DNA from: Trypanosoma brucei
Taxonomy: Eukaryota
Direction of reading: 5' to 3'
Length of the DNA stretch: 64,000 nucleotides
Assembly (NCBI GenBank): GCA_000002445.1
Contig: CH464491.1
Span: 3,360,001 to 3,424,000, forward strand
Position numbers and translations under genes: made by a program. Of this stretch, positions 19,492 through 39,024 are shown piece by piece; the stretch's first letter is position 1, and each line of letters begins with the position of its first letter. Under the pieces are notes generated by a model. The model searched no databases, had not been told where the DNA came from, and worked only from the letters and a program-made list of their open reading frames with translations.

Positions 19492-20617
19492 TGTATAACT
19501 CCTTCGCACTACTTCTGCCTGTTGTTGCCGTGCCCGCCGGCCGTTGTTGCTCTCTGATTTTCTCCTTCAGTGTCTTTCTTTTACACCACTTCCTTTGAAA
19601 CAGAGGGATATATGAGAGTGATTCGAAGGAAAAAAACAGAGGTAAGACAAATGTCATTGAAAGTTAGTGAAGGTTAAAGGAGTGAAAACAAAAAAACTAT
19701 TGATTCTAACCGCCTGGCGTCGAGGAACCAGCACGTAATGGCTAGCAGTCGTTACAAAAAAAAAAAGAAAGACAAAAAACACCTGTGGGAGTTAGTTTGT
19801 GTTGGGTCCTCCACATGTCCAACCGGTCATCAATCGGCTTTATTTTAACGGCGGGTTCAAGGGTAACAAAAAGGGAGGCAAGTGGGAGGTTTACCTCAAC
19901 TAGCCAAGTTTCTGCGGTTTACTGCTGCTGCCATGTAAAGTTGTGTCGTTCCGGAGGTCCGTTACCTTTGTTGACCGCTGACGCTCTAATATTACATTAC
20001 TGTTACGGCAACTAACGGTCACTCACATGCAACACGCGGCAATAAGGCACGACGCCAACCGAGGAAAACAGAGACACACACATATTCATTTGTCATCTTA
20101 CCCATTTATAATACCCGCCTCGGTGCCTGCTGTCCCAAGTATAAACACACGAGAGGGGCACACAGGAAGATGCTCCGTGGGCGGGCGGTGATGGTAATTT
20201 AAAAAAAAAAAGTAACAACAACAATAATAATATGGACTGAAGGTGAATAACAACAACTGTAGAAAGTTAAAATATATACACATATGTGCATATAATGGTG
20301 CAGACAGATAAAATAATGACGATAAATGCGGTATGGGGAAACGATAAGAAGACCAAAAAGGAAGAACACCCATGCCAATTAACCATATAAAAATTTTTCC
20401 CCAAACACCCTCCCCTTATGTCCCTTTACCACCCCTCCTCGTCGCTTTTTGTTTTTTTTGCCATGCGTCTTGTCGCTGTTAGCCCCCACACAAACACACA
20501 CGCCAGCTCCTTCACCCTCTTTCGCGTTTCGCCTCCCTTGACTATTACCCTTCTACCTCATTTTCTGTGAAACACATCCTACCTTAGCTCCACAAGTTTC
20601 AGCTATTCCTTACCTAC

Positions 20618-23613: not shown

Positions 23614-24321
23614 CTAGTTCTTACGGCGCGTAACATGGTCGTATATTGTCACCTGCACGTATTCGGGGCTGTGAATGACCAGTCGGTTGCTGTTGTCTCC
23701 GGGCGTGGGGGCGCGTGGGTCAACGTTGATGGTCTTCCTATCGCGCTTGTGCTTCATTAAGAGCCCAATCTCGTTATCGGCGAGAACCTGAAACGTCACA
23801 CTATTATTGAAAAACAGCGTGTGGGTCTTCCAGTTGTAATAGCTCAAATCTGTACGGCGGGGGGTGAGGCGCTTGCGGCGGTGGAAGTAGTCGGAGAAGT
23901 CCTCCGTTTTGAGCCGGTGGCCATAATCGATGTAGGCGGACACCTCCTGCCCCCGCACAACGTCACGAAGGAATATAATAGTTGATAACTTCCCTGCCCG
24001 CACCAACTCCTCCCGTCGGGCCAGTGCACTCAATAGCGGCGAGTCGTCAAACTGCAGACCAGCGCTGCAAACCACATCCACTTCCTCTTCCCACTTCGAC
24101 GGACCCTCGAGAACAATGAGGCGAGCTGCCTCAAACTCCTCGCGGCTGAGGAAGTTCTTCCCCTTGTAGCCCAACTCCACGATCTGCCGTGCCGCTTCCT
24201 GGTCGCCAAGATAAAAAAGGTCCTCCTGCGTCACCTGTTGGTCCAAGTACTCCTCGTACGTCGCGAAGTCTAGTACATTGCGATCAAAGAAGTCGTTTTC
24301 AGCTGGAGCTGCGTTGCTCAT
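23614..24321 (-). CDS. Conserved hypothetical protein, ~235 aa (possibly a small flagellar/ciliary-type conserved protein)
   Basis: The ORF-track start at 24603 is a GTG and the N-terminal 94 aa look like translated UTR (K-run). The ATG at 24321 (MSNAAPAENDFF...) is preceded by a short C-tract plus AG dinucleotides on the coding strand. The family assignment is only a weak recollection. Confidence 0.5.
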   Translation of the reverse strand: MSNAAPAENDFFDRNVLDFATYEEYLDQQVTQEDLFYLGDQEAARQIVELGYKGKNFLSREEFEAARLIVLEGPSKWEEEVDVVCSAGLQFDDSPLLSALARREELVRAGKLSTIIFLRDVVRGQEVSAYIDYGHRLKTEDFSDYFHRRKRLTPRRTDLSYYNWKTHTLFFNNSVTFQVLADNEIGLLMKHKRDRKTINVDPRAPTPGDNSNRLVIHSPEYVQVTIYDHVTRRKN

Positions 24322-25350
24322 TGCTAAACTATTTAAGCAAGACTTCAAAGAGTAATTTGGGGGGAAAAGTGAATCGTTTTTCTTTTTTTTTTTTAGCATT
24401 CTAAGGACGTATGTGCCGTAACCCCCCCCCCTCTTTCTTAACCTCCCAAACTCGTCTACCACTCCCCTCATGTGCGTATCTGTGTGCGCGCGCCTGATCA
24501 AAAAGTCTGCAAGTACTCGCATTGAGCGAGTAAATACAAGCACTAGCTGATGGAAAATAATAGTGGGAAGAATAAGTGAAATGAACCGGGGATACGGCAC
24601 CACCGGGTGGTAGACAATGCAAAAGGGAAATTAGAATCGAACCAACGATACCACAAAATGGCGTGTACGCTAAGATATATTTCTTTCCTTGTCATGCCAT
24701 GCCATGTACAAAATACAAGTCGTATCTATAAACTCTATCCTTCATAGTCTCCTCTCCTAACAACGCCCCTAGGCAGAGATTATGACTTCACCCCTTCACC
24801 AACACACACACACTAATCCTGTTCTCTGATTCTCTGACGACCGCCCACACTTAAGGAAACGTACGATATATTATTGGATGTATCGGGGTATGTATTTATC
24901 CACCTGTGACTACGCGCGTGCGCCCCCTCCTACGCCTAACGCAGGGCAACTACCACACGTGTGTTATTGTTATATAGTGCCACATACACACACACATCTC
25001 CCATGCAACTTTAAAAAAAAAAAAAAACAATGCCCAAGCACTCAAGTTTTGGAGAGCATGTAACAATAGCGGCCCTAAAAAGAGGGAGACACCAAAAACG
25101 CCATCACTTCCCCTTTCAGAAGCCGTTTTGTAAACCTCAGGCGCGCTAGGCCTCCTCCAGCGGAGGCGGCATTTCATTTACTTCATGGCGCGGAGCCAAC
25201 AACAACAATATTATTACACGCGGCACTGTGGAATAGACACGCACTCAAAAGGAAGAAAAGAGGTAGCGAAGGGAGGGAAACGTCTCCCTGCAACTGCGGT
25301 CCCCTGTTATCCCTCCAGAAACTACCGTATCCCTTTCCCGCTCCACCCTT

Positions 25351-26309: not shown

Positions 26310-28517
26310 CTAAACAATGCCTGCAATGCGCTTGTAGAGCCGGGGAAGCCACCACCACATTCCAACTAGAAGCTGCAATGCCAAAGCCACAGAGCTAAAA
26401 ACTAACACAACAAACATCACTGCCCACCCGCGTCTGTCCGCGGTACCGTCACCAGAGTCATTGCCGTTACCACGGACAGCTGCTAGCCACGCGGTGAGCC
26501 CCAGTATTAGTGCTACGCAACTCGAACAAACGGCAGTCACTAGAAGCACAGGAAGCACAGTTGTGAACAGAGCAGCGGTGGGTCTGACAGTGGCCTTCCC
26601 AAAGTTGTCCCGAACCACAGTGCGGCTCAGAAAGACAGCTCCCAATGACCGTAGCAAACCCCCCACCGCGATGGCGAATGAAAACGCACAGACAGCGGCA
26701 AGGGTGGCTGTGAGTTGTTTACCGTCAAAAAAAAATGCGACTATTAGTACCATAGCAGCAGTGGCAGGCCCGAGTTCCACAAAACGTACAAATGGGCCCA
26801 TACTTGGCACAAGACACAGCAACAACAGTGCTAACGTTGACAGGAGCAACACCACAACAGGACTGATCGCAATACCGTTAGGCCAATTTCCGCTGCCATC
26901 GACAACTGGGATGTCAGTCGCTTTGAAGTGGAGACTATCTAACACCGGCAGCGTCACTAACTCAGAGTCCACAGTAAGAAGAGATACCACTGCGACAAGG
27001 CACCCACAAGCCACACTGCGGATAAAGAACGACGGATCAAGACGCCCCAAACACGAAAGGAAGTTTGTGACATAATGAGATTTACCGCACGAACATGGTC
27101 CAGGCTGCAACATGGATGGAGGTAGTAGTAAGCAAATGCCGATAGCAAGGGAAAATGACACCAATGCGAGAACGGTATGTATGATAGCAGTATAACCCGC
27201 AGCAGCAGTAGTGGCAAATGCCGGAAGAACCCCAAAAGCCACCAGACGAGACATCAACCATGCTAGGCATACCGAGAGCGCTAGAAACGGAGGTCCAGCA
27301 ACATATCCCACATCAGCACAGGTAAACAGCAACAAAGATGCAAATGAACCAACGAAACTGGCTGCCTGAACAAGTTCTCGTACAACAAAAGAGGTAGTGA
27401 CATTCAAAAGGACACCATAAAGCAGACGGAAGTCGTCCACTACCAACATGGCTGTTGAAACGAGTAACACGACGTGAGGAACTTCCCACACACCACGAAA
27501 ACAAAACACAACTAACAGCGAAGAAACTGCGATTGCATGAAACGACATGAGCTTCAGCATCATGCACTTCCCACCTAAAAGATTATCCACAAACGGATTC
27601 GTCTTAAAAACATTGTATGATTCATGGTGTAACATTAGCATGCTGATAATAAAAACGGCAAACACATGCACCACTGCACGCCTCAATCCAAATGAAGAAT
27701 TCGATTCAGAAACCAAAGCTTCGGGGACAAAAACATCGCTTGGACTACCCTGAATCAAATGAACCTCACTGCCACAAAACAAGCACCTAAACACATCACC
27801 ATCAACGAAGACGGGAAATTCCTCACTACAGTAAGAATCCCATCTGCCAGCAGCGACAAGTGGTTCGTCAACAAAACGTTCTGCAGTAACGCTATGCAAT
27901 CCATCGAGAGTACCGTAGGTCCTTTCCAATATCGAACTATCACCGTTCCCACCGAAAGGCCCTCTTCCTGCACCCAACAGCGGTTCTTGATCACCACAGT
28001 CAGCAACACAGCGGTCTCCTGTCGCCACTAATTTAGAAGAACGTAGACCACTAACAGACCTACGCACATCAGTTACCGCACTGACAACTCCAACACACCC
28101 ACAATGAAAACTATCAACCTTTTCCTTAAGCGGCACATCTCGATCCACCCCAACACAAACAGATGGCTGCATCGACAAAACTCCGTATTCAATCTCTTTA
28201 CTACCGCTTGAAAATGTACCCGCAGTAGTGAAGCGGGACATACTATGCGATGAAGAGCGTGCTGAAAATATTGTTGCGCCCCTTCGGAAATCCCTTCCAG
28301 TAGAGTGCCGTGCTAAATACTCCTCATTTTCAATCACCGCTCTACTGGTAGTTTCAGTCTTCACAAATAAATTCACACAAGAAACAGACACAACGTCATC
28401 ATCGCTATCCATCAAAATATCTCGAACGTGCTCCACAAGACTCGCACCGTCACTTGCAGCAAGGCCGTGGTCCGACCCATCTACCTCTTGGCTGCCGAAC
28501 CACGTTTTACTCTCCAT
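26310..28517 (-). CDS. Polytopic membrane protein (~735 aa): ~250-aa soluble N-terminal region followed by ~10-12 predicted TM helices, possible transporter
   Basis: The ATG is at 28517 (the track start at 28520 is a GTG). Long hydrophobic helices run from residue ~290 to the C-terminus. The first ~100 aa are shared with the chimeric gene at 29194-32949. Confidence 0.7.
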   Translation of the reverse strand: MESKTWFGSQEVDGSDHGLAASDGASLVEHVRDILMDSDDDVVSVSCVNLFVKTETTSRAVIENEEYLARHSTGRDFRRGATIFSARSSSHSMSRFTTAGTFSSGSKEIEYGVLSMQPSVCVGVDRDVPLKEKVDSFHCGCVGVVSAVTDVRRSVSGLRSSKLVATGDRCVADCGDQEPLLGAGRGPFGGNGDSSILERTYGTLDGLHSVTAERFVDEPLVAAGRWDSYCSEEFPVFVDGDVFRCLFCGSEVHLIQGSPSDVFVPEALVSESNSSFGLRRAVVHVFAVFIISMLMLHHESYNVFKTNPFVDNLLGGKCMMLKLMSFHAIAVSSLLVVFCFRGVWEVPHVVLLVSTAMLVVDDFRLLYGVLLNVTTSFVVRELVQAASFVGSFASLLLFTCADVGYVAGPPFLALSVCLAWLMSRLVAFGVLPAFATTAAAGYTAIIHTVLALVSFSLAIGICLLLPPSMLQPGPCSCGKSHYVTNFLSCLGRLDPSFFIRSVACGCLVAVVSLLTVDSELVTLPVLDSLHFKATDIPVVDGSGNWPNGIAISPVVVLLLSTLALLLLCLVPSMGPFVRFVELGPATAAMVLIVAFFFDGKQLTATLAAVCAFSFAIAVGGLLRSLGAVFLSRTVVRDNFGKATVRPTAALFTTVLPVLLVTAVCSSCVALILGLTAWLAAVRGNGNDSGDGTADRRGWAVMFVVLVFSSVALALQLLVGMWWWLPRLYKRIAGIV

Positions 28518-30450
28518 CACCTCACCGGAAATTCAACCACTGATGTTGATATTGACTCGGAGAGGTCAGCACACAGCTATTACCGGTGCCTTCTTATCCT
28601 TTCCTATCCAGAACCCAAAACGCCCCCACCTCTTTTTCACTAATCCTTGCTCGTTACTATGACTACGCTGCACAAAGAAATACCGTTTGCAAGCCTGACA
28701 AATGGGGAAAAGGGCTACAGAGTGGAGCACTACAGTGGAAAATACGTGTGCGGTATAAGCACACAGCGACAGGAAGACACAACAGCCTCGGTCAGTTCGT
28801 TACAAACCCCAGAAGCTCAGAGATGCGGTACCTTCATACCCAACAGGTATGCACAAGGCAGCAACATACAGAAACGAGTTGAAGAAAGGAAAAAAGGAAA
28901 AAAGGAAAAAAGTAAGCAAACAATTACATACTTGGGAAGTGCTATGCCTCTTCAAAATACAGAAACGTGCTCGGCGCACCACCAATATCATATTAGACAA
29001 GAATGCCGTGCAGCGCCGGCCGCAACGCTCCAAATCACTTTAACGTCCACACAACGAAATACCGGAATGACGCTGAAAATGGTAGTAGCGCTTGGAGCGA
29101 AGCGCCCACCTACGCTATTTCCCGAAAACAAGCACAAATACAGGCAGTAATCTGCAATAGCTCAATGAAGGCGGTAAAGCACATGAGATACAGCTAACGG
29201 AGTTCGTAACGGCCAAACATAATCGATCCAACAGCAAGGACGAGCATCCCCACCGCAGAGGCTGAGAACGCAGCAGCCTCCTTCCACTCGGATATACCTC
29301 CCTCCTGCACGTACGCTGCAGCAACAGCGGGAGAGCAGCGCTGCAGCGCAGCAAGCATTGCCTCATGCCGATTCTGGCGCTGCTTGTGCATGTCGTCCAA
29401 AAGTTTCCGCACGTTGAATAACATTAAACGCACCCTGTCTTGCATCTGTTGAAGAAGGTCATTCGGGGCGGAAACTCCACTCGACAGGACCCGTGACTCA
29501 CCCGAACCTTCGCAGTGCTCGTGGCGCGGTGACACCATCAAACAATCCAGCTCCTCCCCGACCGCGTCGATTCGGGCTTGCAGTAAACGAAGATTCTCAT
29601 CTTGCCGTTTCCATGTCCCCTCAGCCCTCATTACACGGCGCTTATAATCACTTGCAGCAGCCTGCAGCTCTGTGCGCGCCCCATAGTTATCCCCTGAGTC
29701 GCTGTGCCTCTCAGCTAGTTGCATCACACGCTTGAAATGCCGAGCCTCCTTTATGCACGGAGCGATCTGTGAAACAACCTTGCCACAGCGCTGAATATCC
29801 CTTTCGATTGCCTTAATCTTCCTCAGTAGCAGCACGATTGGAGCACCCAGCGATTGCAGAGCAGAGATGTTATAGCTTTCCGCATTCTCCCCGGCACCCT
29901 CATCCGAGTTCGTTGTATGACAAAATTCACCATCCACCGCACGTTTGCTCCGTCTCCTCCGCTGGGAGGGTCGGTCATGAAGAACAGTGCCAAGTTCAGA
30001 ATGTCCGTGAACAGCACAGTCAAACTCAAAATAATCTTCCGCCAGTCCGCTCTCAGCACCCACGACAGATGTATCATAGGAACTATCAAGGGCATCCTCC
30101 AAACTACATGACCCCTCACCTTCTGAAAAATTAGCAAGCTTTGCCTGCGCAAAATCAACGTCAACAGAACAAGATTTTTCGTTCGGGGAACATGTGAGCT
30201 TTACCACATTTTTCGAAATGTCCCTCCCTGCATTTATTTCATTCAACTGCTTCATTAGTACAGCGTTTTCTTCCTTGAGTTTTCCAAGTTCAGTATGAAA
30301 AGGGTCACTAAACTTGGCACCACCCTCCATTTCATTAAGGTTTTCAGGCGCCTCTTTCGAATAATGCTCCTCAGCAAGTTGCTTTTTCAGTTCCTTCTCC
30401 AGTGCTGCCTTAGAACCAGCCACATCACTCAGTTGCTTCCTCAGTTCCCT
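28196..30450 (-). repeat. Segmental duplication copy 1. It contains the 5' end of the membrane-protein gene, a 670-bp intergenic region, and the 3' domain of the coiled-coil repeat gene. It is duplicated at 32630-34890 (period 4434 bp).
   Basis: 28196-28360 equals 32630-32795. 28430-29190 equals 32870-33625. 29194-30400 equals 33629-34840. A short divergent patch lies at 28360-28430 versus 32795-32870. Confidence 0.85.
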
Positions 30451-32949
30451 CAGTTCCTTCTCGAGTGATGATTTGGAACCAGCCACATCACTCAGTTGCT
30501 TCCTCAGTTCCTTCAGTTCCTTCTCGAGTGATGATTTGGAATCAGCCACATCACTCAGTTGCTTCCTCAGTTCCCTCAGTTCCTTCTCGAGTGATGATTT
30601 GGAATCAGCCACATCACTCGGTTGCTTCCTCAGTTCCTTCAGTTCCTTCTCGAGTGATGATTTGGAACCAGCCACATCACTCAGTTGCTTCCTCAGTTCC
30701 TTCAGTTCCTTCTCGAGTGATGATTTGGAATCAGCCACATCACTCGGTTGCTTCCTCAGTTCCTTCAGTTCCTTCTCGAGTGATGATTTGGAACCAGTCA
30801 CATCACTCAGTTGCTTCCTCAGTTCCTTCAGTTCCTTCTCGAGTGATGATTTGGAACCAGTCACATCACTCAGTTGCTTCCTCAGTTCCTTCAGTTCCTT
30901 CTCGAGTGATGATTTGGAACCAGTCACATCACTCAGTTGCTTCTTCAGTTCCTTCAGTTCCTTCTCGAGTGATGATTTGGAACCAGCCACATCACTCAGT
31001 TGCTTCCTCAGTTCCTTCAGTTCCTTCTCGAGTGATGATTTGGAATCAGCCACATCACTCAGTTGCTTCCCCAGTTCCTTCTCGAGTGATGATTTGGAAT
31101 CAGCCACATCACTCAGTTGCTTCCTCAGTTCCTTCAGTTCCTTCTCGAGTGATGATTTGGAACCAGTCACATCACTCAGTTGCTTCCTCAGTTCCTTCAG
31201 TTCCTTCTCGAGTGATGATTTGGAACCAGCCACATCACTCGGTTGCTTCCCCAGTTCCTTCTCGAGTGATGATTTGGAACCAGTCACATCACTCAGTTGC
31301 TTCCTCAGTTCCTTCAGTTCCTTCTCGAGTGATGATTTGGAACCAGTCACATCACTCAGTTGCTTCCCCAGTTCCTTCAGTTCCTTCTCGAGTGATGATT
31401 TGGAACCAGCCACATCACTCAGTTGCTTCCTCAGTTCCTTCAGTTCCTTCTCGAGTGATGATTTGGAATCAGCCACATCACTCAGTTGCTTCCCCAGCTC
31501 CTTCTCGAGTGATGATTTGGAACCAGCCACATCACATAGTTGCTTCCTCAGCTCCTTCAGCTCCTTCTCGAGTGATGATTTGGAACCAGTCACATCACTC
31601 AGTTGCTTCCTCAGTTCCTTCTCCAGTGCTGCCTTAGAACCAGCCACATCACTCAGTTGCTTCCTCAGCTCCTTCAGCTCCTTCTCGAGTGATGATTTGG
31701 AACCAGTCACATCACTCAGTTGCTTCCTCAGTTCCTTCAGTTCCTTCTCCAGTGCTGCCTTAGAACCAGCCACATCACTCAGTTGCTTCCTCAGCTCCTT
31801 CAGCTCCTTCTCGAGTGATGATTTGGAATCAGCCACATCACTCAGTTGCTTCCTCAGCTCCTTCAGCTCCTTCTCGAGTGATGATTTGGAATCAGCCACA
31901 TCACTCGGTTGCTTCTTCAGCTCTCTCTCTATCAATGTATTAGAATCATTCACAGCACCTAGCTGCTTTTTTGTTTCCTTCAGTTCGTTTTCTATTAGAA
32001 CCTTGGTGTCATTCACATCAGCAAGTTGTTTCCTTAGTTCCTTCAGTTCTTTTTCAATTAAAGCCTTGGAGTCATTTACATCACTTAGTTGCCTCCTCAG
32101 TTCCTTCAGTTCCTTCTCCAGTGATGATTTGGAATCAGTCACATCACTCAGTTGCTTCCTCAGCTCCTTCAGTTCATTTTCCATTAACGCCTTAGAATCA
32201 TTCACCCCACCGAGTTGCTTCTTTATACTGTCACTGCTTTCACCCTTTAGTTGACACTCAGGGCCACTTGATTTCTTTGTTTTTGTCTCAACTATCAGTT
32301 CATCCAGCTCCTTCTCGAGTGACGCTTTAGAATCAGTTACTTCCAGTAGTTGCTGTTTCAACTCCTTAAGTTCTTTTTCCATTAACGCCTTCGATTCGCT
32401 GAGGTTCCTTAATTGTTCTTCAATGTTGGAAAGGGAAGATGATTTCTGCTGATCTCCCTCTGTGTTGTGGCATCGTTCCTTTAAACTGTCCACTTTTCTG
32501 TGCATATCAAATTCCACTGCAGAAGTATCAGTAGCTTCGCTTCTACGGGCGCTTCCTTTCGAGTTCTCTCTTGTGCCGAACCTCTCATCCACTTGAGAGT
32601 TTGCATCAAGAGCACCGCATTCAATTGTCTGTCTGCCGCTTGAAAATGCACCCGCAGTAGTGAAGCGGGACATACTATGCGATGAAGAGCGTGCTGAAAA
32701 TATTGTTGCGCCCCTTCGGAAATCCCTTCCAGTAGAGTGCCGTGCTAAATACTCCTCATTTTCAATCACCGCTCTACTGATAGTTTCAGTCTTCACAAAA
32801 AGATCCTCCCAGGATGTGGAAACAGAATCATTTTCATCCGAACCCCTCGTTTTCCTCTTTTGCTCCACAAGACTCGCACCGTCACTTGCAGCAAGGCCGT
32901 GGTCCGACCCATCTACCTCTTGGCTGCCGAACCACGTTTTACTCTCCAT
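29194..32949 (-). CDS. Chimeric coiled-coil repeat protein, ~1251 aa. Its N-terminal ~100 aa are identical or similar to the membrane-protein N-terminus. It then has degenerate and near-perfect 21-aa repeats and a C-terminal domain ending in a hydrophobic tail anchor.
   Basis: A continuous ORF. The ATG at 32949 is in the same context as 28517. The repeat core is (S)LEKELKELRKQLSDV[AT][GD]SKS. The C-terminus (...AVGMLVLAVGSIMFGRYELR) is a predicted TM tail anchor. Confidence 0.65.
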   Translation of the reverse strand: MESKTWFGSQEVDGSDHGLAASDGASLVEQKRKTRGSDENDSVSTSWEDLFVKTETISRAVIENEEYLARHSTGRDFRRGATIFSARSSSHSMSRFTTAGAFSSGRQTIECGALDANSQVDERFGTRENSKGSARRSEATDTSAVEFDMHRKVDSLKERCHNTEGDQQKSSSLSNIEEQLRNLSESKALMEKELKELKQQLLEVTDSKASLEKELDELIVETKTKKSSGPECQLKGESSDSIKKQLGGVNDSKALMENELKELRKQLSDVTDSKSSLEKELKELRRQLSDVNDSKALIEKELKELRKQLADVNDTKVLIENELKETKKQLGAVNDSNTLIERELKKQPSDVADSKSSLEKELKELRKQLSDVADSKSSLEKELKELRKQLSDVAGSKAALEKELKELRKQLSDVTGSKSSLEKELKELRKQLSDVAGSKAALEKELRKQLSDVTGSKSSLEKELKELRKQLCDVAGSKSSLEKELGKQLSDVADSKSSLEKELKELRKQLSDVAGSKSSLEKELKELGKQLSDVTGSKSSLEKELKELRKQLSDVTGSKSSLEKELGKQPSDVAGSKSSLEKELKELRKQLSDVTGSKSSLEKELKELRKQLSDVADSKSSLEKELGKQLSDVADSKSSLEKELKELRKQLSDVAGSKSSLEKELKELKKQLSDVTGSKSSLEKELKELRKQLSDVTGSKSSLEKELKELRKQLSDVTGSKSSLEKELKELRKQPSDVADSKSSLEKELKELRKQLSDVAGSKSSLEKELKELRKQPSDVADSKSSLEKELRELRKQLSDVADSKSSLEKELKELRKQLSDVAGSKSSLEKELRELRKQLSDVAGSKAALEKELKKQLAEEHYSKEAPENLNEMEGGAKFSDPFHTELGKLKEENAVLMKQLNEINAGRDISKNVVKLTCSPNEKSCSVDVDFAQAKLANFSEGEGSCSLEDALDSSYDTSVVGAESGLAEDYFEFDCAVHGHSELGTVLHDRPSQRRRRSKRAVDGEFCHTTNSDEGAGENAESYNISALQSLGAPIVLLLRKIKAIERDIQRCGKVVSQIAPCIKEARHFKRVMQLAERHSDSGDNYGARTELQAAASDYKRRVMRAEGTWKRQDENLRLLQARIDAVGEELDCLMVSPRHEHCEGSGESRVLSSGVSAPNDLLQQMQDRVRLMLFNVRKLLDDMHKQRQNRHEAMLAALQRCSPAVAAAYVQEGGISEWKEAAAFSASAVGMLVLAVGSIMFGRYELR
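30370..31915 (-). repeat. 63-nt tandem repeat array (~24 units, some 54-nt variants) encoding 21-aa coiled-coil repeats. Degenerate units continue to ~32420.
   Basis: The unit is ccagccacatcactcagttgcttcctcagttccttcagttccttctcgagtgatgatttggaa, read on the plus strand. Confidence 0.9.
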
Positions 32950-34890
32950 CACCTCACCGGAAATTCAACCACTGATGTTGATATTGACTCGGAGAGGTCA
33001 GCACACAGCTATTACCGGTGCCTTCTTATCCTTTCCTATCCAGAACCCAAAACGCCCCCACCTCTTTTTCACTAATCCTTGCTCGTTACTATGACTACGC
33101 TGCACAAAGAAATACCGTTTGCAAGCCTGACAAATGGGGAAAAGGGCTACAGAGTGGAGCACTACAGTGGAAAATACGTGTGCGGTATAAGCACACAGCG
33201 ACAGGAAGACACAACAGCCTCGGTCAGTTCGTTACAAACCCCAGAAGCTCAGAGATGCGGTACCTTCATACCCAACAGGTATGCACAAGGCAGCAACATA
33301 CAGAAACGAGTTGAAGAAGAAAGGAAAAAAGGAAAAAAGGAAAAAAGTAAGCAAACAATTACATACTCGGGAAGTGCTATACCTCTTCAAAATACAGAAA
33401 CGTGGTCGGCGCACCACCAATATCATATTAGACAAGAATGCCGTGCAGCGCCGGCCGCAACGCTCCAAATCACTTTAACGTCCACACAACGAAATACCGG
33501 AATGACGCTGAAAATGGTAGTAGCGCTTGGAGCGAAGCGCCCACCTACGCTATTTCCCGAAAACAAGCACAAATACAGGCAGTAATCTGCAATAGCTCAA
33601 TGAAGGCGGTAAAGCACATGAGATACAGCTAACGGAGTTCGTAACGTTTATATACAGTAGATCCAACAGCAAGGACGAGCATCCCCACCGCAGAGGCTGA
33701 GAACGCAGCAGCCTCCTTCCACTCGGATATACCTCCCTCCTGCACGTACGCTGCAGCAACAGCGGGAGAGCAGCGCTGCAGCGCAGCAAGCATTGCCTCA
33801 TGCCGATTCTGGCGCTGCTTGTGCATGTCGTCCAAAAGTTTCCGCACGTTGAATAACATTAAACGCACCCTGTCTTGCATCTGTTGAAGAAGGTCATTCG
33901 GGGCGGAAACTCCACTCGACAGGACCCGTGACTCACCCGAACCTTCGCAGTGCTCGTGGCGCGGTGACACCATCAAACAATCCAGCTCCTCCCCGACCGC
34001 GTCGATTCGGGCTTGCAGTAAACGAAGATTCTCATCTTGCCGTTTCCATGTCCCCTCAGCCCTCATTACACGGCGCTTATAATCACTTGCAGCAGCCTGC
34101 AGCTCTGTGCGCGCCCCATAGTTATCCCCTGAGTCGCTGTGCCTCTCAGCTAGTTGCATCACACGCTTGAAATGCCGAGCCTCCTTTATGCACGGAGCGA
34201 TCTGTGAAACAACCTTGCCACAGCGCTGAATATCCCTTTCGATTGCCTTAATCTTCCTCAGTAGCAGCACGATTGGAGCACCCAGCGATTGCAGAGCAGA
34301 GATGTTATAGCTTTCCGCATTCTCCCCGGCACCCTCATCCGAGTTCGTTGTATGACAAAATTCACCATCCACCGCACGTTTGCTCCGTCTCCTCCGCTGG
34401 GAGGGTCGGTCATGAAGAACAGTGCCAAGTTCAGAATGTCCGTGAACAGCACAGTCAAACTCAAAATAATCTTCCGCCAGTCCGCTCTCAGCACCCACGA
34501 CAGATGTATCATAGGAACTATCAAGGGAATCCTCCAAACTACATGACCCCTCACCTTCTGAAAAATTAGCAAGCTTTGCCTGCGCAAAATCAACGTCAGC
34601 AGAACAAGATTTTTCGTTCGGGGAACATGTGAGCTTTACCACATTTTTCGAAATGTCCCTCCCTGCATTTATTTCATTCAACTGCTTCATTAGTACAGCG
34701 TTTTCTTCATTGAGTTTTCCAAGTTCAGTATGAAAAGGGTCACTAAACTTGGCACCACCCTCCATTTCATTAAGGTTTTCAGGCGCCTCTTTCGAATAAT
34801 GCTCCTCGGCAAGTTGCTTTTTCAGTTCCTTCTCCAGTGCTGCCTTAGAACCATTAACATCACTCAGTTGCTTCCTCAGTTCCTTCAGTT
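32630..34890 (-). repeat. Segmental duplication copy 2 (partner of 28196-30450)
   Basis: See copy 1. Near-identical over ~2.2 kb except one ~70-bp divergent patch. Confidence 0.85.
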
Positions 34891-37800
34891 CCTTCTCGAG
34901 TGATGATTTGGAACCAGCCACATCACTCGGTTGCTTCCTCAGTTCCTTAAGTTCCTTCTCGAGTGATGATTTGGAACCAGTCACATCACTCAGTTGCTTC
35001 TTCAGTTCCTTCAGTTCCTTCTCGAGTGATGATTTGGAACCAGTCACATCACTCAGTTGCTTCCTCAGCTCCTTCTCCTTCTCGAGTGATGATTTGGAAC
35101 CAGTCACATCACTCAGTTGCTTCTTCAGTTCCTTCTCTCGAGTGATGATTTGGAACCAGCCACATCACTCAGTTGCTTCCTCAGTTCCTTCAGTTCCTTC
35201 TCGAGTGATGATTTGGAATCAGCCACATCACTCAGTTGCTTCCCCAGTTCCTTCTCGAGTGATGATTTGGAACCAGCCACATCACTCAGTTGCTTCCTCA
35301 GTTCCTTCAGTTCCTTCTCGAGTGATGATTTGGAACCAGTCACATCACTCAGTTGCTTCCTCAGTTCCTTCAGTTCCTTCTCGAGTGATGATTTGGAACC
35401 AGTCACATCACTCAGTTGCTTCTTCAGTTCCTTCAGTTCCTTCTCGAGTGATGATTTGGAACCAGCCACATCACTCAGTTGCTTCCTCAGTTCCTTCAGT
35501 TCCTTCTCAAGTGATGATTTGGAACCAGTCACATCACTCAGTTGCTTCTTCAGTTCCTTCAGTTCCTTCTCGAGTGATGATTTGGAACCAGCCACATCAC
35601 TCAGTTGCTTCTTCAGTTCCTTCAGTTCCTTCTCGAGTGATGATTTGGAACCAGCCACATCACTCGGTTGCTTCCCCAGTTCCTTCTCGAGTGATGATTT
35701 GGAACCAGCCACATCACTCAGTTGCTTCCTCAGTTCCTTCAGTTCCTTCTCGAGTGATGATTTGGAACCAGTCACATCACTCAGTTGCTTCCTCAGTTCC
35801 TTCTCGAGTGATGATTTGGAATCAGCCACATCACTCGGTTGCTTCCTCAGTTCCTTCAGTTCCTTCTCGAGTGATGATTTGGAACCAGCCACATCACTCA
35901 GTTGCTTCCTCAGTTCATCCGGCTCCTTCTCGAGTGATGATTTGGAATCAGCCACATCACTCAATTGCTTCCTCAGTTCCTTCAGTTCCTTCTCGAGTGA
36001 TGATTTGGAACCAGCCACATCACTCAGTTGCTTCCTCAGTTCCTTCAGTTCCTTCTCGAGTGATGATTTGGAATCAGCCACATCACTCAGTTGCTTCCTC
36101 AGTTCCTTCAGTTCCTTCTCGAGTGATGATTTGGAACCAGCCACATCACTCAGTTGCTTCCTCAGTTCCTTCAGTTCCTTCTCGAGTGACGATTTGGAAT
36201 CAGCCACATCACTCAGTTGCTTCCTCAGTTCCTTCAGTTCCTTCTCGAGTGATGATTTGGAACCAGCCACATCACTCAGTTGCTTCCTCAGTTCCTTCTC
36301 GAGTGATGATTTGGAATCAGCCACATCACTCAGTTGCTTCCTCAGTTCCTTCAGTTCCTTCTCGAGTGATGATTTGGAACCAGCCACATCACTCAGTTGC
36401 TTCCTCAGTTCCTTCTCGAGTGACGATTTGGAACCAGCCACATCACTCAGTTGCTTCCTCAGTTCCTTCAGTTCCTTCTCGAGTGATGATTTGGAACCAG
36501 CCACATCACTCAGTTGCTTCCTCAGTTCCTTCTCGAGTGACGATTTGGAACCAGCCACATCACTCAGTTGCTTCTTCAGTTCATCCGGCTCCTTCTCGAG
36601 TGATGATTTGGAACCAGCCACATCACTCAGTTGCTTCCTCAGTTCCTTCTCGAGTGACGATTTGGAATCAGCCACATCACTCAGTTGCTTCCTCAGTTCC
36701 TTCAGTTCCTTCTCGAGTGATGATTTGGAACCAGTCACATCACTCGGTTGCTTCCTCAGTTCCTTCAGTTCCTTCTCGAGTGATGATTTGGAATCAGCCA
36801 CATCACTCGGTTGCTTCCTCAGTTCCTTCAGTTCCTTCTCGAGTGATGATTTGGAACCAGCCACATCACTCAGTTGCTTCCTCAGTTCCTTCTCGAGTGA
36901 TGATTTGGAATCAGCCACATCACTCAGTTGCTTCCTCAGTTCCTTCAGTTCCTTCTCGAGTGATGATTTGGAACCAGCCACATCACTCGGTTGCTTCCTC
37001 AGTTCCTTCAGTTCCTTCTCGAGTGATGATTTGGAATCAGTCACATCACTCAGTTGCTTCCTCAGTTCCTTCAGTTCTTTTTCCATCAATGCCCTCGACT
37101 CTGTCACCTTGTTCAGCTGCTTTTTTAGCTCCTTTTCTAGAAGCGTCATTGATCCAGTCATCTCGCTGAGTTGCTCGTTTAGTCCCCTCATTTCTCCTTT
37201 CAATGACGCCTCTAATTTTTCTCTGTTCATTTCTTGCTTTTCATTTTTCTTTTTGTCTTGAAGGTGGTTTTGTGACATCTGTTCATCGCATTGCGCCGTA
37301 TGGAAAATTGCCGTTGAAGTATTGCCAGACTGCCTTATTTTTTCCTCACAGTTTTTTGTGATGCTGTGCAGCTGTCGACTGCTATCTCTCGTTTGGTTAA
37401 CATCTTTGTGTGACTGAGCAATTGGTTGCATCCGCTGCCGTTTCGAATCTGCATCGGCGCACGATGATTGCTGTGGAGAGTCTTCATTTCTAAGGCGGTG
37501 GTGGCGCACCTGCAGTGGACTTTTGTCGAGGTGGCCCCACTGTGATCGGGTAATTTTACCCTCGTCGCGCTTTGCACTGTCGTGCACCGGGGAACTACTT
37601 TCACCTTGATGGATATAACGTGCACGATAGGGCGTACTGGTTCTGATTGTTGACCTCGCTGAAGGGCTAGATCGCGGAGATGGGCGGTGGAGCCCAGAAC
37701 CTGGGGATCCGTTTCTGCACAAAACGGTAGTGAACAGATTACATAGCCTTGCGTACTGGTCGCTGGTCAGGTCAACAGTGTCCTGAGAACGTTGTGACCG

Positions 37801-39024
37801 ACCGATGGTACAGAGCACACTTGAGTGTAAGATACGTTGGTGCTGCCGAGTTAACGATCGGACCCATGTCTTGGCAGCAAATCTTTCCACCGACACAAAT
37901 TCATCGTAGGCCCGCGGCGGAGTACATGCACGCTCGCTTGGATGAACATGATCCATTCTCGGTGCTCGAGCCCCATAGCGGCTTGGGCTCTTCCATCGGG
38001 AACAAGCTACCCCACGGTGATCAGTGTTTTCAAGGCGTTCGTAGTTATTCCATAATGAACGTATTTCTCGTGTAATGACATCCAACCGCTTGCGCACTTG
38101 TTCTACACGGTGTTGAAGATGAGTCGCGTCCTCGCCGGACTGTTGCACATCGCGTAAGTGGTGCTCGTGCCAATTCACGCAAATCATCCTCATATTAGCC
38201 ACGACCCACTGTTGCACGGAGCCAAGTGCATGACTCCCTTTGAGGGCTTCCTCGTACGTAAAGTTCAGAGAGTTAGTGTACTGTGAAACGAGTTCGTCGT
38301 GGCACTCCTTGCTGATGGTCAGCGGGTCAAACTGCATCAGCACCTGCAGTATCCCAGCACGGTGCAGAAAAGGCTGCATCTCACTCCATGTGCGCCTCCT
38401 CTCACCAAGCAGTACCATTACTAATCCCATGACACGCACGACAATATCCGGGGGTGTTCGGTACGACACAAGCTCTCTCCAATGCCGAGCATCGACCTGG
38501 CGCACCACGTGGCAGGCGTGCCTAAGCTGCATCTCAGCCTCTCGCTTCTTCGTGGCAACATCCAGATTTTTCATAGAAAGCTCACGATATAATTTTGCGC
38601 GCTCTTGCGAAAGCCGAACCGCTTCGTCTCTGTGCTGAATCAGCTGGGACTGTAGAGGAGGAATCCGTAGCAGAAGTTCGCGTCCCTCCTCCGTCGTTAC
38701 GGCAGCCAGGGCTTTTGTCAGCGGGCAGGCACCTCCCTCCTGATCACTTGGTACCAGAGGTTCTATGTACAAAGAGCGGCAAACAACATCGCTGCACACA
38801 ATTCCTAGGCTGCAACGCCACATGCCAGAAGATCGCTCAATGTATTCATACGCCACAATGTCGTCAGGGGCGACCTGAGGAAAGGAGTCCTGCCGCCACT
38901 GGAACTCCTCCAACCCCGATAAAAATTCACCATCGTCGCCCACGGCAAATAGTGGTGCTATAGTAAGGATTGAAGGTTGGTCACTGCCTGCCATTGTGCC
39001 TTCTTCTGGTATATTTACCTCCAT
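33629..39024 (-). CDS. Giant tail-anchored coiled-coil repeat protein (~1800 aa if contiguous). It has a ~690-aa N-terminal globular/coiled region, ~36 x 21-aa repeats and a C-terminal domain with a TM anchor. It is interrupted by a +2 frameshift at ~35125-35140 (the ORF track splits it into 33629-35107 and 35125-39096).
   Basis: The ATG at 39024 gives MEVNIPEEGTM.... The track start at 39096 is a TTG. The C-terminal 400 aa are near-identical to the C-terminus of 29194-32949. One repeat unit at 35101-35162 reads ttccttctctcgag instead of ttccttctcgag (an extra tc). Confidence 0.6.
34805..37075 (-). repeat. 63-nt tandem repeat array (~36 units, including 54-nt variants lacking the KEL codons). 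Degenerate units continue to ~37260.
   Basis: Same unit as the 30370-31915 array. Variable sites a/g, c/t and t/c give D/G, A/T, R/K/G and L/P alternatives. Confidence 0.9.

What the first reader, a model, noticed from the sequence alone, without database searches (positions are those of the whole stretch)
33629..39024. Giant tail-anchored coiled-coil protein built from 21-aa repeats: a golgin/tether-like architecture
Reading through the frameshift, the gene encodes a ~690-aa N-terminal region, then ~36 near-perfect 21-aa heptad-compatible repeats (SLEKELKELRKQLSDVAGSKS), and then a ~400-aa C-terminal domain. The C-terminal domain ends in a single hydrophobic helix 5 residues from the C-terminus (AVGMLVLAVGSTVYKRYELR). 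An N-terminal head, a long rod and a C-terminal tail anchor is the architecture of golgins (such as giantin) and of ER/organelle tethers. No signal peptide precedes it, which is consistent with post-translational insertion via GET/TRC40. The paralog at 29194-32949 keeps the same tail anchor.
Basis: partly seen in the sequence, partly recalled or inferred. Interest (0 to 1): 0.55.

Follow-up and report, generated by a model that had tools for sequence, protein, structure and literature searches.

The report
Tail-anchored rod with dynein microtubule-binding head
This Trypanosoma brucei gene encodes a very long rod-shaped protein with a membrane anchor at one end and, at the other, a copy of the microtubule-gripping tip of the dynein motor without the motor, so it most likely ties an organelle membrane (probably the mitochondrial outer membrane) to the cell's microtubule corset rather than acting as a Golgi tether.

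Summary
On the minus strand, 39024..33629 reads through one frameshift as a 1797-aa protein. It has a ~627-aa N-terminal region, 37 tandem units (27 of 21 aa, 9 of 18 aa, 1 of 20 aa), a 382-aa C-terminal region and a single hydrophobic helix 6 residues from the end. The window is T. brucei TREU927 chromosome 11.

The golgin reading misses the key feature. Residues ~122-337 are a dynein stalk hairpin: coiled coil 1, the six-helix microtubule-binding domain (MTBD), coiled coil 2. The match passes the Pfam PF12777 cut-off. It scores E=8e-11 against the mouse dynein-1 stalk, and E=2e-40 with a family profile. There are no AAA+ motor domains.

The head–rod–tail-anchor layout is conserved in T. congolense, T. 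conorhini, Angomonas and Leishmaniinae. The post-anchor motif is Y-K-[KR]-Y in Trypanosoma and most Leishmaniinae members.

Published proteomics cover only the paralogue, Tb927.11.12880 (POMP17), which shares the rod and anchor. They place it in the mitochondrial outer-membrane proteome and in a microtubule-associated fraction.

Best reading: a passive tether of up to ~117 nm between a membrane and microtubules. This is inferred, not shown. The frameshift (a 7-bp deletion relative to the paralogue) may be a real lesion or a reference error. I found no paper describing this family.

The parts
33629..39024 (-). Whole gene A. It reads as 1797 aa after correcting one frameshift. It lies where Tb927.11.12890/12900 would be and has no protein entry in the databases searched.
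38725..38862 (-). Small N-terminal beta-strand domain (DIVAYEY..W.C.LG.V...). It is conserved across the trypanosomatid family and matches no Pfam family.
   Evidence: Alignments. AF2 predicts three strands, at low confidence.
38497..38661 (-). Stalk coiled coil 1 (CC1), a ~55-aa helix.
38185..38490 (-). Dynein-type microtubule-binding domain, with six short helices (WRELVSYRTPP ... FTYEEALKGSHALGSVQQWVVA).
   Evidence: Pfam PF12777 27.4 bits against a cut-off of 24. phmmer versus 5AYH/3WUQ gives E=8e-11, gapless. The family profile gives E=2e-40.
38014..38184 (-). Stalk coiled coil 2 (CC2), the returning arm of the hairpin.
37735..37872 (-). Conserved post-stalk motif (TW....Q.RILHSSVLC.. then a helix). 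It is present in all family members.
37144..37734 (-). Ser/Pro/Arg-rich stretch, predicted disordered at its start. It is the distal part of the basic linker aa 346-627 (pI 9.75 for the whole linker) and ends in degenerate pre-repeats.
34821..37077 (-). 63-bp tandem array encoding the heptad rod (37 units of 21/18/20 aa).
35135..35136 (-). Frameshift site: two extra bases relative to an 18-aa unit, or a 7-bp deletion relative to the paralogue's 21-aa unit.
34298..34777 (-). Acidic region (pI 4.6) with one short helix; the rest is predicted disordered.
33713..34297 (-). Conserved membrane-proximal domain of three long helices (46, 51 and 43 aa).
   Evidence: Conserved with T. congolense and T. 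conorhini (E=6e-10). AF2 helices have block-mean pLDDT of about 56-85. Only generic helical-bundle fold matches were found.
33650..33712 (-). Tail-anchor transmembrane segment AAAFSASAVGMLVLAVGSTVY.
   Evidence: KD 1.80 over 19 residues; the unweighted Hessa sum is +2.3. AF2 predicts a helix.
33629..33649 (-). Basic C-terminal tail KRYELR plus stop. With the preceding Y it forms the Y-K-[KR]-Y motif.
29194..32949 (-). Paralogue gene B (= Tb927.11.12880, POMP17, assigned by gene order, orthogroup and molecular weight). It has the same rod, C-domain and anchor but no MTBD. Its first ~112 aa are shared with the next gene.
26310..28517 (-). Tb927.11.12870, a polytopic membrane protein. Its 5' end and upstream intergenic region are duplicated in front of and into gene B.

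Best explanation
Gene A encodes a trypanosomatid-specific, non-motor protein that acts as a passive tether between a membrane and microtubules.

Shown by sequence analysis:
- A C-terminal tail anchor, preceded by a conserved three-helix domain.
- A rod of ~790 residues with strict heptad periodicity, up to ~117 nm if it is a continuous helix.
- A basic disordered linker.
- An N-terminal head that is a shortened dynein stalk hairpin (CC1, six-helix MTBD, CC2), flanked by a small beta domain and a conserved motif.

Inferred:
- The anchor is inserted post-translationally with the bulk of the protein in the cytosol.
- The rod dimerises as a coiled coil.
- The MTBD binds microtubules. I infer these to be the subpellicular corset or the microtubule quartet, because from my own knowledge (not checked here) these are the only non-flagellar, non-spindle microtubules in this cell.
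- Without the AAA+ ring, the stalk registry is fixed, so binding is static rather than cyclic.

The membrane is most likely the mitochondrial outer membrane, so the protein would hold or space the single mitochondrion against the corset.

In the TREU927 reference the gene is interrupted by a 7-bp deletion in the rod. This may be a reference error, or a lesion of one haplotype.
For: Architecture.

Dynein homology:
- Pfam PF12777 is above its gathering score.
- phmmer against the PDB gives E=8e-11 to mouse dynein-1 stalk/MTBD, gapless over 174 residues.
- The family profile gives E=2e-40 to yeast, mouse and human cytoplasmic dynein-1 over CC1-MTBD-CC2.
- The AF2 secondary structure is long helix, six short helices, long helix.
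- The top Foldseek hits are the dynein stalk structures 3WUQ and 5AYH.

No motor domains are present.

Conservation of the whole layout as one ORF:
- T. congolense TcIL3000_11_13290.
- The same syntenic locus in T. conorhini, with TM+MYKRYSLI.
- Angomonas and Leishmaniinae members ending in a TM segment, most with LQYKKY.

Rod units are 21, 28, 42 and 42 aa in four species. All are multiples of 7 although the sequences are unrelated.

Localisation, for the paralogue or shared peptides only:
- POMP17, mitochondrial (PMC6686227).
- hyperLOPIT 'microtubule structures 2', p 0.999 (single iteration) and 0.994.
- TAGM-MCMC 'mitochondrion - OM' 0.97 for the allelic copy Tb11.v5.0366.

The anchor is moderately hydrophobic with a net +2 tail.
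Against: - No experiment on gene A itself exists. It has no protein entry, so all proteomic evidence is for gene B or for peptides shared with it, and gene B lacks the MTBD.
- hyperLOPIT calls are inconsistent between methods and stages: unknown, ER 0.77, secretory/endocytic. Some may reflect peptides shared with the polytopic neighbour 12870.
- Tb11.v5.0366 is not significantly reduced on pATOM36 RNAi (log2 -0.19, p 0.08).
- Two dynein microtubule-contact residues named in PMC6629372 (K3299, R3337) are A and Q here.
- The AF2 models are low confidence (pLDDT 48 and 53).
- The reference copy is frameshifted.
- The rod contains Gly/Ser-rich stretches, 8 Pro and 29 Gly. It may be segmented rather than one rigid coiled coil.
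Confidence: 0.55

Rival explanations
1. Same mechanism, different membrane. The tail anchor sits in the ER (or another endomembrane such as glycosomes), and the protein links that organelle to corset or quartet microtubules, in the manner of CLIMP-63, p180 or kinectin.
For: In the BSF single-iteration data, hyperLOPIT TAGM-MAP gave 'endoplasmic reticulum' 0.77 for Tb11.v5.0366. In PCF it gave 'secretory/endocytic 1' at negligible probability. Gene B's tail has lost one positive charge and is more hydrophobic (KD 2.01), which by established tail-anchor rules shifts targeting toward the ER.
Against: The paralogue is listed in the mitochondrial outer-membrane proteome as POMP17, and TAGM-MCMC gives OM 0.97. 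Gene A keeps the ancestral, more basic YKRY tail and a weakly hydrophobic transmembrane segment.
Confidence: 0.2
2. In T. brucei the gene is a dead pseudogene. The frameshift is real, the MTBD-rod product lacks an anchor and is unstable, and only the MTBD-less paralogue (POMP17) functions.
For: The frameshift is present in the TREU927 reference. No protein entry exists for either ORF, and only one GenBank protein lies between 12870 and the prefoldin gene. IDs 12890 and 12900 never appear in the proteomic tables searched.
Against: There is only one lesion in 5.4 kb. The downstream 1152 bp are 99% identical to the intact paralogue with no further stops or indels. A 2.3-kb array of near-identical 63-bp units is a classic place for assembly error. 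The orthologue is intact in T. congolense. The head is strongly conserved with T. congolense, at 58% identity.
Confidence: 0.2
3. One reading: a golgin or giantin-like vesicle tether anchored in Golgi or ER-exit-site membranes and inserted by GET/TRC40.
For: The generic architecture of long coiled coil plus C-terminal anchor. A Pfam Uso1_p115_C hit lies in the rod.
Against: That hit is one of dozens of coiled-coil noise hits and disappears when the rod is removed. The head is a dynein MTBD, not a Rab-, Arl- or vesicle-binding region. No proteomic assignment to the Golgi was found.
Confidence: 0.05
4. A purely cytoskeletal microtubule-associated protein. The C-terminal hydrophobic stretch is not a membrane anchor but a protein-protein interface.
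For: 'Microtubule structures 2' assignment. The unweighted Hessa sum is positive, +2.3 kcal/mol.
Against: The hydrophobic segment followed by a basic Y-K-[KR]-Y tail sits at the extreme C-terminus in distant genera. KD is above threshold. The paralogue is in the outer-membrane proteome.
Confidence: 0.07

Closest known systems
Stalk and microtubule-binding domain of cytoplasmic dynein-1 heavy chain (Pfam PF12777; PDB 3WUQ, 5AYH, 3ERR)
   Same: Homologous CC1, six-helix MTBD and CC2 hairpin. It aligns without gaps, and the profile E-value is 2e-40. It is closer to cytoplasmic dynein-1 than to axonemal dyneins.
   Different: There is no linker, AAA+ ring, buttress or tail. The stalk arms are about 55-75 residues (from the AF2 helices), shorter than the roughly 100 residues I recall for dynein. 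The hairpin is flanked by a beta domain and a conserved motif instead of AAA4/AAA5. Some dynein microtubule-contact residues are not conserved.
Tb927.11.12880 / POMP17 (the adjacent paralogue, gene B)
   Same: Same 21-aa rod units, same C-terminal domain and anchor. It is 99% identical over the last 1152 bp.
   Different: It has no MTBD head. Its N-terminus is the first ~112 aa of the neighbouring polytopic protein 12870. The anchor end reads SIMFG instead of STVYK.
Tail-anchored golgins (giantin, golgin-84, CASP)
   Same: Long coiled-coil rod with a single C-terminal transmembrane anchor and a cytosolic bulk.
   Different: No sequence relationship was found. The head is a microtubule binder. 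No evidence of Golgi residence was found.
Membrane-microtubule linkers such as CLIMP-63, p180 and kinectin (ER), from my own knowledge
   Same: The proposed working principle: an integral membrane protein with a coiled-coil spacer that binds microtubules statically.
   Different: These are N-terminally anchored (from my own knowledge). None of them matched the query in the Pfam or PDB sequence searches. As far as I know, none uses a dynein-type MTBD.
Other trypanosomatid non-motor proteins with the same N-terminal module
   Same: These include T. cruzi 803-aa proteins named 'dynein heavy chain, cytosolic, putative', proteins carrying the FAZ1_cons repeat, and Leishmaniinae 'kinetoplast-associated protein-like protein'. 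All share the beta domain, CC1, MTBD, CC2 and conserved motif at the N-terminus.
   Different: Their C-terminal parts differ: FAZ1_cons repeat arrays, short coiled coils without an anchor, or a polytopic domain. Only one subfamily carries the tail anchor.

Membership tests
Dynein stalk/MTBD domain (PF12777) | Sequence match above the curated threshold | tested here: met
   27.4 bits against a cut-off of 24. PDB phmmer E=8e-11. Family profile E=2e-40.
Dynein stalk/MTBD domain (PF12777) | Topology: long helix, six short helices, long antiparallel helix | tested here: inconclusive
   The AF2 secondary structure fits, and the top Foldseek hits are 3WUQ and 5AYH. However pLDDT is 48 and TM-scores are 0.29-0.41.
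Dynein stalk/MTBD domain (PF12777) | Conservation of tubulin-contacting residues | tested here: inconclusive
   K3299 aligns to A and R3337 to Q (residues named in PMC6629372). R3342 aligns to R, E3378 to E and R3382 to K (residue list recalled from memory).
Dynein stalk/MTBD domain (PF12777) | Binds microtubules | not testable with these tools
   Only indirect evidence: the hyperLOPIT 'microtubule structures 2' call for the paralogue or shared peptides.
Dynein heavy chain (motor) | Six AAA+ modules, linker and tail | tested here: not met
   No AAA, DHC_N or linker Pfam hits. The protein is 1797 aa.
Tail-anchored membrane proteins | Single hydrophobic segment within ~30 residues of the C-terminus, with no signal peptide and no other transmembrane segment | tested here: met
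   KD 1.80 at aa 1772-1790, followed by 7 residues. The next best window scores 1.36.
Tail-anchored membrane proteins | Post-translational insertion with a cytosolic N-terminus | not testable with these tools
   -
Mitochondrial outer-membrane tail-anchored proteins | Moderately hydrophobic transmembrane segment with a basic C-terminal flank | tested here: met
   KD 1.80; unweighted Hessa sum +2.3; tail KRYELR has net charge +2.
Mitochondrial outer-membrane tail-anchored proteins | Resides in the outer membrane | tested here: inconclusive
   Data exist for the paralogue only: POMP17 and TAGM-MCMC OM 0.97. Other assignments were also made. It is not pATOM36-dependent.
Golgins (tail-anchored type) | Sequence relationship to giantin, golgin-84 or CASP families | tested here: not met
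   No such Pfam family hits outside generic coiled-coil noise.
Golgins (tail-anchored type) | Golgi localisation | tested here: inconclusive
   No Golgi assignment appears in the proteomic tables found. TrypTag supplements held no entry.
Coiled-coil rod | Heptad periodicity of hydrophobic residues | tested here: met
   Power at period 3.5 is 138, against a shuffle maximum of 50. Unit lengths of 21, 28, 42 and 42 aa in four species are all multiples of 7. An 18-aa unit equals 11+7, i.e. a stutter.

The most novel reading that the evidence does not exclude
Trypanosomatids have taken the stalk tip of a cytoplasmic-dynein-like heavy chain and reused it as a stand-alone, ATP-independent microtubule anchor in a whole family of non-motor proteins.

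This member couples the anchor through a heptad-repeat spacer of up to ~117 nm to a tail anchor. It would be the physical link that holds the single mitochondrion (or ER) against the subpellicular corset.

In TREU927 the tether may even be split. Gene A would supply head plus rod, and gene B would supply rod plus anchor, joined through their near-identical repeats.
Probability: 0.3. Interest if true: 0.8.

Novelty: new variant of a known kind. Interest (0 to 1): 0.62.

Why it matters
From my own knowledge, trypanosomes have no cytoplasmic microtubule network. How the single mitochondrion, the ER and other organelles are positioned and partitioned relative to the subpellicular corset is largely unexplained at the molecular level.

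A conserved tail-anchored protein with a dynein-type microtubule-binding head is a concrete, testable candidate for that link.

It also shows that the dynein MTBD can exist as an independent module outside motors. That bears on how the stalk registry controls affinity, and on the mis-annotation of several trypanosomatid genes as 'dynein heavy chain'.

Finally, the gene is absent from protein databases because of one frameshift in a repeat array. Proteomic signal from it has probably been credited to its paralogue POMP17.

Tried and rejected
- A word-index protein search with the N-terminal 685 aa and with the C-terminal 357 aa found only two relatives each.
- The same search with a 16-sequence family alignment found nothing at E<=1e-5, probably because coiled-coil words swamped it. 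No deep alignment was therefore available for structure prediction.
- The AF2 models are low confidence, with pLDDT 48 and 53. I used their secondary structure only.
- The Foldseek search of the C-terminal model gave only generic helical bundles such as ClyA and designed bundles. I draw no conclusion from it.
- The afdb50 library was unavailable.
- The Niemann 2013 outer-membrane proteome paper is not held, so the POMP17 name rests on PMC6686227.
- TrypTag supplements contained none of the four gene IDs.
- Five literature searches for a described non-motor MTBD protein, or for a mitochondrion-corset tether in trypanosomes, found nothing relevant.
- Exact-sequence look-ups of ORF1, ORF2 and several gene B start variants were negative. 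I could not recover the annotated sequence of Tb927.11.12880. I matched it by gene order, orthogroup and molecular weight (123.3 kDa annotated, against 122.8 kDa from Met150).
- I considered a KASH/LINC-type anchor and rejected it: only 6-7 residues follow the transmembrane segment.
- I considered a SNARE and rejected it: Pfam finds no SNARE family, and in the AF2 model an unstructured segment of about 10 residues separates the last helix from the anchor.
- The frameshift could not be checked in another assembly. The T. equiperdum contig starts inside the array, about 200 bp short of the site.
Full report
**What is in the sequence.**

All sizeable ORFs in the window lie on the minus strand, as in a trypanosomatid polycistronic unit. 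Exact protein look-ups identify the window as Trypanosoma brucei brucei TREU927 chromosome 11. It runs from the acyl-CoA-binding protein gene (EAN80232) past the mt-LAF2 helicase gene.

The finding's coordinates are right. An ORF from ATG 39024 runs into a 63-bp tandem array and stops at 35125. A second ORF in another frame continues from 35107 to a stop at 33629. The two frames meet at CTCGAG-AG-AAGG near 35135. Aligned to the paralogue, the lesion is a 7-bp deletion inside one repeat unit. Removing two bases gives a single 1797-aa protein of 202 kDa.

**The repeats.**

Tandem Repeats Finder gives 37.1 copies of a 63-bp unit at 34821-37077, with 89% matches and score 3555. At protein level there are 27 units of 21 aa, 9 of 18 aa and one of 20 aa, preceded by two degenerate units from residue 628.

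The 21-aa unit SLEKELKELRKQLSDVAGSKS has hydrophobic residues at positions 2, 6, 9, 13 and 16. This is a continuous d-a-d-a-d heptad pattern with one polar core position. An 18-aa unit equals 11+7, which is a stutter. Hydropathy power at period 3.5 is 138, against a mean of 9 and a maximum of 50 in 500 shuffles.

The corresponding rods in relatives have unrelated unit sequences but periods of 28 aa (a T. congolense fragment), 42 aa (T. cruzi) and 42 aa (T. conorhini). All are multiples of seven. What is conserved is therefore a long heptad rod, not a sequence. If the 788 residues form a continuous helix, the rod is about 117 nm long. Gly/Ser stretches, 29 Gly and 8 Pro mean it may be jointed.

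**The tail.**

The only segment above the Kyte-Doolittle 1.6 threshold is AAFSASAVGMLVLAVGSTV (1.80). It is followed by YKRYELR and the stop. An unweighted Hessa sum of +2.3 kcal/mol marks it as only moderately hydrophobic. No N-terminal signal-like segment exists.

A low-confidence AF2 model (pLDDT 53) predicts the following order:
- helical repeats;
- a disordered stretch of about 110 residues within the acidic region;
- three long helices of 46, 51 and 43 residues, with block-mean pLDDT of about 56-85;
- the transmembrane helix.

Fold search returned only generic helical bundles.

The three-helix domain and anchor are conserved in T. congolense. They are also conserved in the syntenic T. 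conorhini locus, whose ORF ends ...GTLMYKRYSLI (E=6e-10). Angomonas and Leishmaniinae relatives also end in a transmembrane segment, most with LQYKKY(D/A/C)V. A Y-K-[KR]-Y motif directly after the anchor is thus conserved in Trypanosoma and most Leishmaniinae members.

With the rod removed, Pfam finds one family above its gathering score in the N-terminal region. This is PF12777, 'Microtubule-binding stalk of dynein motor', at residues 145-330 (27.4 bits, cut-off 24).

- phmmer against PDB sequences aligns residues ~143-316 without gaps to the mouse cytoplasmic dynein-1 stalk/MTBD (5AYH, 3WUQ; E=8e-11). Dozens of other dynein heavy chains follow.
- A profile of 16 family members hits yeast, mouse and human cytoplasmic dynein-1 at E about 2e-40 over 225 positions spanning CC1, MTBD and CC2. 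Cytoplasmic dynein-1 scores better than axonemal dyneins.
- AF2 (three sequences only, pLDDT 48) predicts three beta strands, a 55-residue helix, six short helices and a 74-residue helix.
- Even this poor model retrieves the dynein stalk structures as top Foldseek hits, at E about 1e-3 with low TM-scores.

There are no AAA+, linker or tail domains. The head is therefore a shortened dynein stalk hairpin with its microtubule-binding tip, in a non-motor protein.

I aligned the microtubule-contact residues I could name. K3299 and R3337 (named in PMC6629372) are A and Q here. R3342, E3378 and R3382 (from memory) are R, E and K. Conservation of the binding interface is therefore partial, and microtubule binding is inferred, not shown.

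**The family.**

An exhaustive phmmer search of 1.84 billion representatives with residues 1-460 found 321 hits. True dynein heavy chains appear only from E about 1e-10. The top ~40 hits are proteins of 500-3500 aa that carry the same N-terminal module:
- a small beta domain (DLVAYEY..W.W.LATV);
- CC1, MTBD and CC2;
- a 'W....ILRSSILC' motif.

Named members are trypanosomatid. They include:
- T. theileri and T. cruzi orthologues;
- T. cruzi 803-aa proteins annotated 'dynein heavy chain, cytosolic, putative';
- Angomonas 'Microtubule-binding stalk of dynein motor, putative';
- Leishmania, Leptomonas and Lotmaria 'kinetoplast-associated protein-like protein';
- a Porcisia protein with FAZ1 conserved domains.

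Pfam confirms FAZ1_cons repeats in several members. Only one subfamily, which includes this gene, ends in a tail anchor. T. congolense TcIL3000_11_13290 has head, rod, C-domain and anchor in a single uninterrupted ORF. This supports reading through the T. brucei frameshift.

**Genomic context and the paralogue.**

The gene order in the window is:
- oligopeptidase B;
- a DUF4464 gene;
- a polytopic membrane protein (Tb927.11.12870, exact match EAN80236);
- gene B;
- gene A;
- prefoldin (Tb927.11.12910).

This order is established.

A ~4.4-kb segment is tandemly duplicated at 93% identity overall. Gene B (1251 aa, intact) has the same rod, C-domain and anchor as gene A. Its first ~112 residues match the N-terminus of 12870 apart from a divergent stretch at residues 30-49, and it has no MTBD.

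By gene order, orthogroup membership (12870 and 12880 share an orthogroup) and annotated mass (123.3 kDa, against 122.8 kDa from Met150), gene B is Tb927.11.12880. Only one GenBank protein lies between 12870 and prefoldin. Neither ORF of gene A is in a 15-billion-protein collection. Gene A is therefore unannotated as a protein.

The last 1152 bp of genes A and B differ at 11 positions. Eight of these lie within 13 bp and change the end of the anchor from STVYK to SIMFG. Gene A keeps the ancestral YKRY. The T. equiperdum contig has a run of N at exactly that spot.

**Published evidence.**

- Tb927.11.12880 is listed as POMP17, a protein of the mitochondrial outer-membrane proteome, in PMC6686227. 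The original proteome paper was not available.
- In the hyperLOPIT study (PMC10361982), 12880 is allocated to 'microtubule structures 2'. The probability is 0.999 in one single-iteration dataset. In the procyclic 33-plex it is 0.994, below that study's threshold. This class holds corset-, FAZ- and cytokinesis-associated proteins.
- The allelic copy Tb11.v5.0366 is allocated to 'mitochondrion - OM' at 0.97 by TAGM-MCMC in bloodstream forms. TAGM-MAP leaves it unclassified or gives ER 0.77.
- In PMC10432679, Tb11.v5.0366 is well detected (45% coverage) and is not significantly reduced on pATOM36 RNAi (log2 -0.19, p 0.08).

Gene A is not in the search databases, and tryptic peptides of the rod and C-domain are identical in A and B. 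I infer that these profiles are composites of both proteins. A mixed outer-membrane and microtubule signature is what a tether would give, but the data are weak and indirect.

**Interpretation.**

Most likely (confidence about 0.55), the protein is a passive tether between a membrane and microtubules. The components would work as follows:
- The tail anchor and three-helix domain sit at an organelle membrane.
- The heptad rod, plus an acidic and a basic disordered segment, act as a spacer of up to ~117 nm for the rod alone.
- The dynein-type hairpin binds the subpellicular or quartet microtubules without ATP-driven cycling, because no AAA+ ring exists to shift the stalk registry.
- The flanking beta domain and post-stalk motif may clamp that registry. 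This is speculation.

The membrane is probably the mitochondrial outer membrane, on three grounds: the POMP17 listing, the TAGM-MCMC allocation, and a moderately hydrophobic anchor with a basic tail. The ER remains a serious alternative.

The golgin reading is not supported beyond the generic architecture. Whether the TREU927 frameshift is real cannot be decided here. It is a single lesion in a 2.3-kb near-perfect array, and the downstream sequence is otherwise intact. This favours a recent event or a reference error.

**Novelty.**

The Pfam domain is already attached to some orthologues in databases, and the paralogue has a proteomic name. However, five full-text searches found no description of non-motor dynein-MTBD proteins, or of a mitochondrion-corset tether, in trypanosomatids.

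I rate it a new variant of a known kind: a membrane-cytoskeleton tether built with an unusual, motor-derived microtubule-binding module.

Noticed in passing
window 29194-32949 (-) and 26310-28517 (-): Gene B is a chimera. Its first ~112 codons and the 676-bp upstream intergenic region are copies of the 5' end and upstream region of the next gene, the polytopic membrane protein Tb927.11.12870. The intergenic copies are 99% identical. This explains why OrthoFinder places 12870 and 12880 in one orthogroup, and why proteomic peptide assignment among 12870, 12880 and gene A may be confounded.
   Followed up: partly
window 33647-33659 versus 29212-29224: In paralogues that are otherwise 99% identical over 1152 bp, 8 of the 11 differences fall within 13 bp at the end of the tail anchor (STVYK versus SIMFG). 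This removes one positive charge and raises hydrophobicity in gene B. It may be a switch in membrane targeting or a micro-conversion tract. The T. equiperdum assembly (L001, about 1280-1294) has a run of N at exactly this spot, and the annotated T. equiperdum protein reads through it into the 3' UTR.
   Followed up: partly
proteins P0024-P0073: A large trypanosomatid family of non-motor proteins shares the beta-domain, CC1, MTBD, CC2 and motif module. It includes members with dozens of FAZ1_cons (PF23398) repeats, one with a C-terminal polytopic membrane domain (P0073), and T. cruzi genes mis-named 'dynein heavy chain, cytosolic'. P0030, P0058 and P0063 have two to five MTBD-like domains in tandem, in proteins of unknown origin.
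   Followed up: partly
window 7600-19509 (-): A 3963-aa protein (EAN80233, Tb927.11.12840, named DUF4486 in T. equiperdum). hyperLOPIT classifies it as 'flagellum 1', as it does the DUF4464 gene at 23614-24603.
   Followed up: no
window 560-1582 and 2373-3395 (-): Two ORFs of identical length (340 aa), 1.8 kb apart at the start of the window. They look like another tandem gene duplication.
   Followed up: no
window 28881-28912 and 33316-33347: A (GAAAAAAG)x4 microsatellite on the plus strand in both copies of the duplicated intergenic region. On the coding strand this is a pyrimidine-rich tract downstream of each tail-anchor gene, possibly part of the trans-splicing/polyadenylation signal for the next gene.
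   Followed up: no
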